Shown here piece by piece: positions 21,106 through 56,812 of a DNA stretch of 64,000 bases. Both the position numbers and the translations under genes were made by a program. Source of the stretch: Eledone cirrhosa (Eukaryota). Within the stretch, counting starts at the first letter, position 1. Every line of letters begins with the position of its first letter. Below the pieces are notes generated by a model, which did not search any database, had not been told where the DNA came from, and saw only the letters and a program-made list of their open reading frames with translations. The stretch is from NCBI GenBank assembly GCA_964016885.1, contig OZ024758.1, positions 7,998,001 to 8,062,000 of the forward strand. Direction: 5' to 3'.

Positions 21106-21156
<51 letters not shown>

Positions 21157-21159
<3 letters not shown>

Positions 21160-21420
21160 TTATTATAAGAACAGATTAAAGTTTAAGCAAAAAATCGCTG
21201 CTTTCACCCTTAATGGGATCTTCTGAAACTAAAAAAAATCAATCTGTGGACGCAGAAGTAAATATTTCGAAAACCGTTACAACCGGAGGAAGACAGGAAG
21301 ACGATACTTTGGTTCGTGGAAACGTTCCCTGGCAATGATTTTTTTTAGTTTCAGAAGATTCCATGAAGGGTGAAAGCAACGATTCTTTGCTTAAACTTTA
21401 ATCTGTTCTTATAATAAATA
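21157..21420. mobile_element. Inverted-repeat element (arms about 85 bp, spacer about 95 nt) flanked by (TA)n
   Basis: 21157-21241 is the reverse complement of 21336-21420 with few mismatches. Arms carry a degenerate CAGAAGA-stem-GAAAG motif. Confidence 0.75.
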
Positions 21421-21740
21421 TTTGCTCTACGGGTTTATATATATATATATATATATATTTTATATATATAATCCTTATCGAACCCTCTTCAGACTTTAGT
21501 CTTCACATTTATTATTACTATATATATTTGCTGGTAATTCTTTAAAATTTTCACTCACAAACATATGCACAATGTATTGCCTAGCTCAGTGATGATGCTA
21601 ACAATAACAAGTTCACTGTCCAATCATGAGGTCATACATTCTAACTCTACATTTATCCCTGTAAATAATTATTACTCCAAAGTTACTCATACAGTTAACT
21701 CTGTCTCATTTGTAAATATATGTTAAATATTTATATAATT

Positions 21741-22342
21741 GGAAAAAATGAAACGATATTTCATTTCCCACTCTTAGTACGGCTGTTACTTAAATATAAG
21801 TATGTACACGTACATACATATATGTATACCGACGTACAGTAGTATGTGTATATATATATACATACATGCACACATATATATATGCACGTATGTATACATA
21901 TATGTATGTACGTGTACATACTTATATTTAAGTAACAGCCGTACTAAGAGTGGGAAATGAAATATCGTTTCATTTTTTCCGTTTATCATTTTCGGTGCAC
22001 CCGGCCGATTAACCCACTCGATATGCAAATTGGGCTACTCAGCCGTTAATATGCATAAGGTAAGTCTATACGTTCAACAATCTGGCAGGAAGGTATACGT
22101 TGCTGACGATAGCTAACAAGCTTGAAACTAGTACAGCGTTCCTTTGTCAGTGTTGAACAAATGAGCAACGGTGGTTGCTAGACACTACGGCTTAATACGG
22201 GATGTTTGTTTACAAACACACCGAGCATTATAATAAATGTTCGGTGAATCCATACGTGCATATATATATGTGTGCATGTATGTATATATATATATACATA
22301 CTACTGTACGTCGGTATACATATATGTATGTACGTGTACATA
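21741..22342 (+). mobile_element. Non-coding hammerhead-containing element (retrozyme-like / non-autonomous Penelope-like), 422-nt unit plus inverted junction copy
   Basis: Direct terminal redundancy gtatacatatatgtatgtacgtgtacata at 21892 and 22314. 21741-21892 is the reverse complement of the unit end joined to its start. Homologous copy at 56401-56812. Confidence 0.7.
22097..22139 (+). ncRNA. Minimal type I hammerhead ribozyme (family A)
   Basis: ACGTTG-CTGACGA-T AGC taacaa GCT T-GAAAC TA GTA-CAGCGT. Helix I is ACGTTG/CAGCGT, core intact, palindromic helix III ACTAGT, GUA site after 22133. Helix I extends via gttcaaca (22072)/tgttgaac (22158). Confidence 0.8.
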
Positions 22343-25300
22343 TTTATATATATATAATTATATCCTAGAAATAAATGATTAAAATATCATTCTTATCTCT
22401 AATCACTTCCACATGTCAGTTGTCAACACAAAACTATAGAGTTTCTTTAATGACATTAACTTATCAAAATAACAATTTCCCAGTTTGTATGATTGTTCAT
22501 CATCATCGTTCAACGTCCATTTTCCATGTTAGCATGGATTAGACAGGCTTATCCCACTTTTGAGGCAAGATTGGTCAGGTTACCGTGTCTCCCTCATATA
22601 GAACTGGTTCCGGCTGGTTTTCTGCGGCTGGAAGCCCTTCCTAACGCCAACCACATTTACAGTGTGGACTGTTCATATATCCAGTAACCCTGTTATATAT
22701 GGCATATCAATCCTGGGCTCTAAAAATTAAATATGTTCAACAGTATTGCCATCATTGGATTGGCAGTATCGGTAGAGGGTTGGACGCTATGCTTTGCAGC
22801 ACAGAGTTACGCCCCTTTATGATCTGAGTTCAAATCCCGCCAAGGTTAACTTTGCCTTTCATCCTTACGGGGTTGATAAAATAAAGTACCAGTAATGCAC
22901 TGGGGTAATTGCTGGCCTTGTGCCAAAAGTAGAAACAATTATTGATAGTTTAGGTCTGTTAGTATTAAATATTTGTCACCCAATTATTTAACAGAATGTA
23001 GTTGAGTGGAGGGGGGGGGGGGGGGGCATATCAAACATAGCCTCACTAATTGCATTTACAGACATAGTGTAAGCATATGCATATGAAGAATATGCAATGT
23101 TTTTATGGTTAATATCGGCTTAGAAACTTCATACTCTTAAATGACAGAAACATTTATATTGCTAAAGCGTTTTATGTAATTTAAGAGATGTCTCTTTGAG
23201 GTTAGCAAGATTAAGAAAGAGAAACATTGATACCGTGTCCTAATAAAAGAATGCTATCACCTCAGTTCTAAACACCAGCTGCCAACTAATGATATTTTTG
23301 TTATGCTAGTATCATTGGTTTCTGGAAATATGAACTGAGGTAGATTTTCTCATTAACAGATCATTCAATTTTAATCCTTTTAAATTAACGTACAGTTTTT
23401 TTTCTTATTATGAAATTGGGGTGGTCACAGTTGAAAAACTTGCTCAATCAAGGCTGACATGGATCTAAGCAACAACAACATCAATAACAACCTTATTAGT
23501 TTTTCTCTTTAGTTTAAAAGGTCAAATATATATTTTATGGCTGTCATAGTTAAGGGCTTTAAATATTACCCTAAACAGATTGTGTTAACCACACTAACAG
23601 ACACATCACAAAAGCTAAAAGAAGCATTACATTGATTATTATTTTTGTTGTTGTTAGCACCAATTTACCAAATTGTCTCCCTAATATAACTATCTGAGAT
23701 TATTTCTGTTGGTTAATCACACATTTCTTGCAAATCTATTTTGTATTCCTCAGCCTTCCCCTAAAACTTTCTATTTTCGCTCTCAATACTTTCCTTGCAG
23801 TTATTTTTCACAGTATCTAAAGTTTTTCTACTTGATATAATCTAGACTGACCCCCCCCCCCCCTAAACACTTCTATTTTGTTCCCTATTCCTCTAAACTA
23901 TTATTTGAATTATTGAAGATCTTTCACCATGTTTTTCTTGATCCCTTATGATATGGTCATTCTATTGGGGCATCTCATAAATAATTGTTTCTACCTTTGG
24001 CCCCAGTGCATTACTGGTGCTTTATTTTATCAACCCCCATAAGAATGAAAGGCAAAGTTAACCCCAGCAGAATTTGAACTCAGAACGCTAAGGGCCATAA
24101 CTCTATGCTGCAAAACATAGTGTCTGACGCTCTATCGATACTGGCAATCCAATAATGCGGGGTTGTTGTTTTTTTTATATTTTTAAAAATTAATATAATC
24201 TGCACTTTTCAAAGCTTGCAGAGTGTGTGTGTGTGGGGGGGGGGGGGGGACAAGGTGAATTTAATATCTGCTTTTATAGTAAGTTTATGTGGGGGTTATC
24301 CCTACCCCTTCCAACTTTTATTACATAAAATTGAAAGAAAAAAATGCCTCATTTGATGGGATAATCTTTCTACTTAATTCCTCAACTGTTTCTCCTGTAA
24401 ACTTTAATGCTATATAACTATGGTCTTCTCTGAAAACTTACATAGTCAACTTAGAGATGTTTTCTATCTTTATGACATAAAATATATCACCAAAATAGGT
24501 GGCATTTTCAAAAAGGTGAGGTAATGTGAGAAACTTGTGCAAATGTATGACTTGGGACTAGTCTCATGTTCATTATTATTCGAGTAAAGTGCTCACGTCA
24601 TGTCTAGGCTAAGGATTGTATTTTCTTATAAAAGTTACTGTCAATATTAAAAGGTTATCACGTTTGATATCTTATCTTCTGGATATTTCTACTTAATGTT
24701 GTATGTGAAATTTATTTTTAATCTTATTTTTATATCCTATCCAAACAATTTTTACTTGGTTCTTTTCAAATGTTGATTGTTGCTGTTGTTTTCTCAATGC
24801 AGATTACACAATAGCTTGTCCCGTGCTTTAAAGCAACCAGAGTGATTAAGTTTGAACCAGTTGCTCTTTATTTCAATATTTAATGATACCATTAGCTACA
24901 GTGTCATTTGGAAAATTGATCATTAATTATTGCTATTTTCTCAATTTTATTACCCATCAAATTCTTTGCAGAATGCTTAAAATGTCTATTGATATATTTC
25001 AAAGAATAATCTATTTGTCAGTAGACCTACACATTCATAGTAAGCAGCACAGTTCTTGTCCATTTACATACTAGAGTGTAATTTTCTCAAAATGCATAGT
25101 CATATATCCCTGAAGGATGACTTAAAGTAATGAGTTATGCACATCTACTCAATATTGTGGTAGGAAACATAAAAGTAGATTATCTCAGAAAGCACTTCTA
25201 ATGGATACATTTTACTTTTTAAACCAATTCTTTTTGTCTTTCATAATCATTGGCTGCTTCTCGTTGTTGTTCAGTTCTTCAGATATCTACTTTAATATTA

Positions 25301-56330: not shown

Positions 56331-56400
56331 CCCTCTTCCTGCTATTTCAAGCGTTAACCTAATATATTCCTTCCATATACTGTACCGATTGTGTTGTTAT

Positions 56401-56805
56401 TTATATTTAGGTATCAGCCGTACTAAGAGTGAGAAATTTCATTTCATTCTTTTCCATTTATCGTTTTCGGTACGCCCGGCCAACTAACTCACTCGATATG
56501 CAAATTAGGCTGCTCAGCCGTTAATATGCATAAGGAAAGTATATACTTTCAAATGTTCAATGATCTGACAGAAAGGTATACGATGCTGATGATAGCTAAT
56601 AAGCTTGAAACTAGTACATCATTCCTGTGTCAGTGTTGAACAAAAGGGTGACGATGGTTGCCGAACACTGTACGGCATAATTCGGGCTGTTTGTTTGTTT
56701 ACAAACAAACCGAACATTATAATAAATGTTCGGTAAACCCATACGTACATATATATATACATACTACTGTGCGTCTGTACACCTATATGTATGTACGTAT
56801 ACATA

Positions 56806-56812
<7 letters not shown>
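56401..56812 (+). mobile_element. Second copy of the hammerhead element (about 406-nt monomer)
   Basis: Colinear with the 21.9-22.3 kb unit (cagccgtactaagagtg, actcgatatgcaaatt, ribozyme, ccgaacattataataaatgttcgg). Begins and ends with ttatat. Confidence 0.7.
56582..56620 (+). ncRNA. Minimal type I hammerhead ribozyme (family A, second copy)
   Basis: GATG-CTGATGA-T AGC taataa GCT T-GAAAC TA GTA-CATC, GUA site after 56616. Helix I has A-U where the other copy has U.G. Confidence 0.8.

What the first reader, a model, noticed from the sequence alone, without database searches (positions are those of the whole stretch)
21741..22342. Candidate retrozyme: 422-nt hammerhead element that records a circular or multimeric RNA template
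Seen: a non-coding unit (21892-22313) ends with a repeat of its own first ~29 nt and holds a complete type I hammerhead (22097-22139) with an extended helix I. It is preceded by about 150 bp (21741-21892) that is the reverse complement of the unit END running straight into its START. Known: small non-LTR retrozymes of animals carry hammerheads and accumulate as circular RNAs, and Penelope-like elements (PLEs) carry minimal hammerheads and often insert with inverted partial copies. Inference: an end-to-start junction needs a circular or head-to-tail template, so this may be a circular ribozyme RNA mobilised by a PLE-type reverse transcriptase. I cannot tell whether this family is already catalogued.
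Basis: partly seen in the sequence, partly recalled or inferred. Interest (0 to 1): 0.85.

Follow-up and report, generated by a model that had tools for sequence, protein, structure and literature searches.

The report
Penelope-mobilised tandem hammerhead retrozyme
This is one short copy of a very abundant 422-base non-coding repeat that carries a hammerhead ribozyme motif, forms head-to-tail arrays and lands with the two-ended signature of Penelope-like jumping genes, so it is likely a parasite of those elements of a known kind (an animal retrozyme), with its circular RNA stage still untested.

Summary
Observation confirmed. The window holds two head-to-head arms of a 422-nt tandem repeat with a type I hammerhead. 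The genome has about 25,000 exact hammerhead cores of the family and head-to-tail arrays of near-identical units. The ends are not circularly permuted: 82 of 87 3' ends fall at two fixed sites about 60 nt apart, mostly in (TA)n. In 29 of 31 two-armed insertions each arm uses a different site. That is the published Penelope-like element (PLE) 'tail' signature. The window's end-to-start junction and '29-nt repeat' follow from tandem units and need no circle. 5' truncations ignore the cleavage site. The unit covaries as RNA structure, and a G8-dead core variant did not spread (252 copies). No RNA run was available, so cleavage and circles are untested. No parent PLE was found. Verdict: a new family of a known class, the non-LTR retrozymes, with unusually clean evidence of PLE-type insertion. 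The scan noted similar PLE-type insertions in other genomes, not this family.

The parts
21741..21892 (-). Left arm: 5'-truncated inverted copy, unit 360-422 then 1-89, ending at the long-tail site (E2, usually unit 93-95)
21741..21794 (-). The roughly 55-60-nt 'tail' (unit 36-89) present at this end only
21892..22342 (+). Right arm: unit 1-422 plus 1-29, ending at the short-tail site (E1, usually unit 33-36)
22097..22139 (+). Type I hammerhead; core CUGACGA 22103-22109, GAAA 22124-22127, predicted cleavage after A22133; minimal palindromic helix III
22072..22158 (+). Extended helix I enclosing the hammerhead
22023..22030 (+). ATGCAAAT octamer, invariant in 16 of 16 aligned units and present in two distant families; candidate promoter element or part of an RNA helix
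22063..22070 (+). TATA-like box about 40 nt after the octamer (this copy carries a C where the other aligned units have A)
22251..22313 (+). TA/CA-rich self-complementary part of the unit, variable in length between subfamilies
21728..21737 (+). Left copy of a probable 10-bp AT-rich target-site duplication (low complexity, so tentative)
22341..22350 (+). Right copy of the probable target-site duplication
56398..56810 (+). Second, older copy of the family in the window (83% identical), single arm ending at E1 in (TA)n

Best explanation
The insertion is a short, two-armed copy of a non-coding tandem hammerhead repeat (a non-LTR retrozyme) that is likely copied into AT-rich DNA by the reverse transcriptase-endonuclease of a Penelope-like element acting in trans. 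Shown: tandem arrays, two fixed 3' ends about 60 nt apart, one end type per arm, random 5' truncation, (TA)n targets, conserved RNA structure. Inferred: arrays are transcribed, probably from an internal promoter; the PLE protein cuts both target strands and starts one cDNA on each, one at E1 and one at E2, inside an RNA that continues beyond those sites; both cDNAs stop at random and are joined head to head through short microhomology. Inferred with less confidence (about even odds): adjacent hammerheads cleave as a dimer and the monomer is ligated to a circle, and copying round that circle regenerates multimers. The window copy has one hammerhead only, so it would be a product and not a source of circles.
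For: Arrays at 422-nt spacing. Two end sites: 43 ends at unit 35-39 and 39 at unit 88-95, of 87 true ends in 60 loci (4 further rows were continuing units misclassed by the script). The same two sites occur in the 75-80% identical subfamily (15 E2, 12 E1 of 27 ends in 20 loci), and an independent contig set shows a loose-end pile at E2 running into (TA)n (39 contigs). 29 of 31 two-armed insertions are E1+E2 (binomial p 4.6e-7; one locus counted twice). A one-sided tail, an inverted 5'-truncated copy and (TA)n targets are described for PLEs (10.1101/2021.04.23.441226 and PMC3846280, passages), and two internal start sites bounding the tail were shown in vitro (PMC11167929). RT plus GIY-YIG ORFs are present in the genome. 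Structure: 13 of 82 pairs with double changes, 0 of 500 shuffles as high; circular fold z -7.1. Core: CUGACGA 13,172, CUGAUGA 11,840, CUGACAA 252. For re-multimerisation: L031 and L032 have 10 and 9 hammerhead-bearing units that are identical or differ by one base across both arms (L031 shares a variant in all units), and 9 two-armed insertions share a rare variant in both arms.
Against: No PLE ORF was found attached to the unit, and none of the PLE 3' regions tested resembles it, so the partner is unidentified. Several insertions mix haplotypes (L060, L063, L078, L145, L146), which one monomer circle cannot give. L142 (A'BABA) and the long arrays L035 and L048 show DNA-level duplication, another route to multimers. 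Within the sample, avoidance of core positions by recurrent variants is not significant (0 vs 78 recurrent, 6 vs 170 singletons, Fisher p 0.18). The minimum-energy fold mispairs the core. In the anole PLE the hammerhead was not needed for insertion in vitro, and only 1 of 9 Xenopus retrozyme dimers cleaved. The 60-nt tail is longer than the 30-40 bp given for PLEs.
Confidence: 0.85

Rival explanations
1. Same PLE-driven insertion, but the template is an uncut linear multimeric transcript. Arrays are rebuilt by DNA-level duplication or end-to-end template jumps, and no circle is needed. This differs from the best explanation only in the circle step.
For: Mixed haplotypes inside single insertions, and DNA-level duplication in L142, L035 and L048. 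No 5'-end pile at the cleavage site (1 of 107 within 238-248, 3.7 expected). Hammerhead mutants still insert in vitro for the anole PLE.
Against: The core has been kept across subfamilies only 75% alike while the dead G8 variant did not spread, so the ribozyme seems needed at the template stage. Internal priming plus 5' truncation would shorten arrays each round, yet very young 9-10-unit homogeneous insertions exist.
Confidence: 0.4
2. The copies are merely termini (pLTRs) of a long coding PLE.
For: PLE-type ends and hammerhead; many coding PLEs in the genome; my sample is small against 25,000 units.
Against: In 97 loci picked for the unit no ORF is joined to it; ORFs nearby are separated by (TA)n or other repeats (ORFs were listed for 40 of the 97, the rest were judged from how the arms end). 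Among the first 100 of 156 listed copies that leave the unit just after the tail there is no recurring new continuation, apart from one duplicated pair. Pure arrays of up to 14 units have no ORF.
Confidence: 0.06
3. The inverted arm is a snap-back DNA copy of the first cDNA, or the element is a DNA-type (MITE or Helitron-like) repeat.
For: A few junctions are palindromic (L046, L073, L078), and self-priming has been proposed for PLE palindromes (PMC3846280 passage).
Against: Either arm can be the longer one (E1 arm in the window, E2 arm in L031), the arms usually start at different unit positions, and they can carry different haplotypes. Random 5' truncation and RNA covariation do not fit a DNA element.
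Confidence: 0.05

Closest known systems
Metazoan non-LTR retrozymes (Cervera and de la Pena 2020, PMC7229834; Li, Clavereau and Pollet 2026, bioRxiv 10.64898/2026.07.22.740005)
   Same: Non-coding tandem units of 150-450 bp, one type I hammerhead per unit, GC under 50%, highly self-paired predicted fold, TSDs longer than 4 bp, thousands of copies, co-occurrence with PLEs.
   Different: Circular RNA and cleavage are not shown here. Paired inverted arms with two fixed ends are not described in the parts of these papers I read ('inverted' has 0 occurrences in PMC7229834). No sequence link to a PLE pLTR was found, unlike 24 of 57 Xenopus families. Sister subfamily units reach 466-540 nt.
EN+ Penelope-like element insertions (Arkhipova et al. 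2013, PMC3846280; Craig et al. 2021; Frangieh et al. 2024, PMC11167929)
   Same: Inverted 5'-truncated arm, one-sided tail, two internal start sites, AT-rich or (TA)n targets, microhomology at the inversion junction, hammerhead near the end.
   Different: No ORF; the whole unit is the repeat; tail about 60 nt rather than 30-40 bp.
Newt satellite 2 (as cited in PMC2220036; the original paper was not read)
   Same: Tandem hammerhead repeat needing dimers; reported internal snRNA-type promoter, which the conserved octamer plus TATA-like box here may parallel.
   Different: Promoter function untested here; no sequence comparison was made.
Non-autonomous Chlamys PLEs such as MRC1 (Craig et al. 2021, passage)
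   Same: [quoted passage not shown]
   Different: Those lack hammerheads and resemble their partners at the 3' end; no such partner was found here.

Membership tests
Non-LTR retrozyme | Tandem non-coding units of about 150-450 bp (51-972 in the 2026 survey) | tested here: met
   422-nt period arrays
Non-LTR retrozyme | Type I hammerhead in every unit, at least two consecutive units intact | tested here: met
   35 of 152 arms have two or more full hammerheads (the sample favours long arms); the window copy itself has one
Non-LTR retrozyme | No LTR structure or ORF | tested here: met
   PBS and PPT were not searched for separately
Non-LTR retrozyme | Highly self-paired RNA | tested here: met
   z -7.1 circular, -7.1 without the microsatellite part (60 shuffles each); covariation
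Non-LTR retrozyme | TSD longer than 4 bp when present | tested here: inconclusive
   10-49-nt shared strings in 7 of 7 hand-picked insertions, all low complexity, no control
Non-LTR retrozyme | Self-cleavage | not testable with these tools
   only indirect: core conserved, G8 variant rare
Non-LTR retrozyme | Expressed as linear and circular RNA | not testable with these tools
   no RNA holder listed; runs laid were contigs
PLE-mobilised insertion | Two fixed 3' ends bounding a one-sided tail | tested here: met
   82 of 87 ends; 29 of 31 pairs
PLE-mobilised insertion | Inverted 5'-truncated copy joined head to head; AT-rich target | tested here: met
PLE-mobilised insertion | Sequence shared with the pLTR of an autonomous partner | tested here: inconclusive
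   none found in a small sample of PLE ends; the genome holds over 10,000 GIY-YIG candidates
Autonomous PLE | RT plus GIY-YIG ORF between pLTRs | tested here: not met

The most novel reading that the evidence does not exclude
A self-sufficient ribozyme circle that has lost any resemblance to its helper: an internal octamer/TATA promoter makes multimers, dimeric hammerheads release a 422-nt circle, and a dimeric PLE enzyme starts two cDNAs at two fixed sites and rolls round it. The 29-of-31 'one arm per start site' rule would then be a direct genomic read-out of how the two subunits divide the two target strands, and would explain the tandem and inverted structure of PLEs in general. At least two distant sister families in this genome share the layout.
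Probability: 0.3. Interest if true: 0.68.

Novelty: new member of a known kind. Interest (0 to 1): 0.42.

Why it matters
Which enzyme moves animal retrozymes, and how PLEs make their tandem and inverted insertions, are open questions; the papers read offer co-occurrence, sequence similarity and one in vitro system. This family gives a young, 25,000-copy, ORF-free substrate of 422 nt whose insertions carry the PLE tail signature with a near-strict pairing of the two start sites. It is a ready test RNA for comparing circular and linear templates. The class itself is known, so the surprise is modest.

Tried and rejected
Rfam: no hammerhead call. RNA evidence: no RNA holder listed; this blank is no evidence on expression. 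The runs laid were contigs and cannot show starts, ends or circles; three of the four held only 4 contigs each and were not used as evidence of range. Search for the parent PLE: GIY-YIG search, 20 long-ORF loci, local alignment of the unit to the sequence after 22 PLE ORFs (the output was cut and I saw 20 or 21 of them; best scores 34-36 against shuffle maxima of 32, others below), an exclusion pattern after the tail (which tests only junctions at unit 96-113), and a profile search over 142 loci plus the window, which found only two further non-coding families. An intron idea (ATG...AAG|GTAAGT at 22052-22065) was dropped because neither motif is conserved. A dimeric-circle reading of the alternating array L142 was dropped because its 5' piece is a third haplotype, which fits DNA duplication. 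A test of whether the (TA)n flanks are added during insertion found no usable empty site. Linear cleaved monomers as template are not supported: 5' ends are uniform (KS p 0.22). Literature searches listed no paper on this family or on tail-paired retrozyme insertions; the library lacks most subscription papers, Dfam and RepBase were not available, and the preprint's supplements were not seen.

Full report
Observation. The right arm runs 21892-22342 (unit 1-422 then 1-29). The left arm, 21741-21892 on the minus strand, is unit 360-422 then 1-89. The hammerhead at 22097-22139 has the architecture given for canonical metazoan type I motifs in PMC4209133 (part 1 of 4 read): helix I 6 bp, helix II 4 bp and a 1-2-bp helix III with a palindromic loop, which points to dimeric cleavage. 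Two copies of that palindrome pair at -6.8 kcal/mol. Helix II is closed by U-U, where a G-C pair is usual (recalled). Rfam does not detect the motif.

Copy number and arrays. The window lies in a 3.0-Gb animal-type genome. A DNA search returned 67 matches from 40 scored candidates of 742, many at 422-nt spacing. Exact core patterns give 13,172 units with CUGACGA and 11,840 with CUGAUGA, with 0 for reversed controls. The second group belongs mostly to subfamilies 73-80% identical with units of 466-540 nt. I fetched 36 loci from the best hits, 40 from the first 100 listed CUGACGA matches on contig C1, and 20 from the CUGAUGA list. The first set is biased to young, long copies.

Ends. In 60 loci the script found 91 places where a unit end is not followed by another full unit. 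Four were continuing units of the divergent subfamily, misclassed. Of the other 87, 43 end at unit 35-39 (E1) and 39 at unit 88-95 (E2), nearly always running into (TA)n; shared TA letters make the true ends a few bases uncertain. The divergent subfamily uses the same two sites, and contigs of a public run pile up at E2. Among 142 loci, 31 two-armed insertions had both ends classed, and 29 carry one E1 and one E2 (p 4.6e-7). The exceptions are L060, which joins two subfamilies (E2/E2), and L068, whose tail is broken by a later insertion. L146 contributes two duplicate rows. Some arms end elsewhere (for example L071, L074, L077, L147) and are not in that count. The window copy obeys the rule, with both ends a few bases short. 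Of 107 resolvable 5' ends, 1 lies within 5 nt of the cleavage site (3.7 expected) and the spread is uniform. At 32 inversion junctions, 22 overlap by 1-16 nt, 3 are flush and 7 have 1-17 extra bases (BLAST estimates).

Meaning of the ends. A tail on one end only, an inverted 5'-truncated copy and (TA)n targets are described for PLEs (10.1101/2021.04.23.441226 and PMC3846280, passages). The anole PLE protein cuts and extends both target strands and starts reverse transcription at two internal RNA sites that bound the tail (PMC11167929, parts 1-2 of 4). The genome holds RT plus GIY-YIG ORFs, some themselves in inverted two-armed form (L117, L125). I therefore infer PLE-type target-primed insertion in trans.

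Selection on the RNA. In 16 units chosen across 9 clusters, 13 of 82 predicted pairs change on both sides, with 0 of 500 shuffles as high and 1-3 such pairs when partners are slid. The structure was derived from the same alignment and the sequences are related, so this leans favourable. One helix I pair reads U-G 70, A-U 10, G-U 9, other 3 across insertions. The same CpG in the core can decay to CUGAUGA (tolerated position) or CUGACAA (G8; its loss of activity is recalled, and G8C is reported inactive). The first founded subfamilies (11,840), the second is mostly scattered singles (252). These counts reflect lineage founders and are not independent events, and the within-sample test was not significant (p 0.18).

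Circle or linear multimer. For a monomer bottleneck: young insertions L031 and L032 have 10 and 9 units that are identical or one base apart across both arms, and 9 two-armed insertions share a rare variant in both arms. Against a single monomer circle as the only route: L060, L063, L078, L145 and L146 mix haplotypes, and L142, L035 and L048 show DNA-level duplication. The genome cannot decide this, and no RNA data were available. I put the circle at about even odds, resting largely on the published behaviour of the class (PMC7229834: abstract, sections 14 and 17, passages). Against easy assumption, only 1 of 9 Xenopus dimers cleaved and the anole hammerhead was dispensable in vitro.

Partner and relatives. 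No ORF-linked copy and no similar pLTR was found, in a small sample of a PLE-rich genome. A profile search found two distant non-coding families that share the order octamer, TATA-like box, hammerhead. One of them, examined in 25 loci, has 436-441-nt tandem units, two fixed ends about 35 nt apart, (TA)n targets and inverted arms (read by eye, not counted). The octamer may be a promoter element, as reported for newt satellite 2 (cited in PMC2220036), but ATATGC also pairs with the TATA-like box in the predicted fold, so this is unresolved.

Comparison and verdict. It works like a PLE insertion and meets every testable criterion of a non-LTR retrozyme. The class is published, and a July 2026 preprint argues that such elements are non-autonomous PLE derivatives (10.64898/2026.07.22.740005, parts 1-3 of 5 read, supplements not seen). 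I found no paper on this family or on the end-pairing rule in retrozymes in six searches; Dfam and RepBase could not be checked. New member of a known kind; interest 0.42.

Noticed in passing
window 21156-21421: A second two-armed inverted insertion 320 bp upstream. It matches the far 3' end of an abundant coding PLE-like family (L155, L158, L116, L131), has a roughly 15-20-nt tail on one arm, lies in (TA)n, and contains a hammerhead-like motif reading CAGAAGA instead of CUGANGA.
   Followed up: partly
L162:6098-6357 and L172-L196: Distant sister retrozyme family (2,409 search candidates): 436-441-nt units, repeated octamer-like motifs, hairpins after the hammerhead like those of this family, two fixed ends, no attached ORF seen.
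   Followed up: partly
L055:3040-3550; L113 near 52: A third family with octamer, TATA-like box and a different hammerhead, in inverted two-armed form.
   Followed up: no
window about 8857 and 45934 (minus strand); L036, L041, L044, L051, L063: Several other hammerhead families; one in L036 recurs at 312-nt spacing with an inverted copy.
   Followed up: no
L060:4997-5362: One insertion joins a young-subfamily arm to a 75%-identical subfamily arm, and the innermost piece carries a few variants of the other subfamily; possible two-template event.
   Followed up: partly
L044, L156, L061 flanks: Pieces of flanking DNA (about 30-110 bp) recur in inverted orientation near the other end of the insertion.
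   Followed up: no
L035, L048: Long arrays (at least 14 and 12 units) with higher-order repeat patterns, that is, the retrozyme turning into satellite DNA.
   Followed up: partly
L073:3600-4800: A retrozyme insertion sits at the centre of an inverted coding PLE insertion, with TA tracts between.
   Followed up: partly
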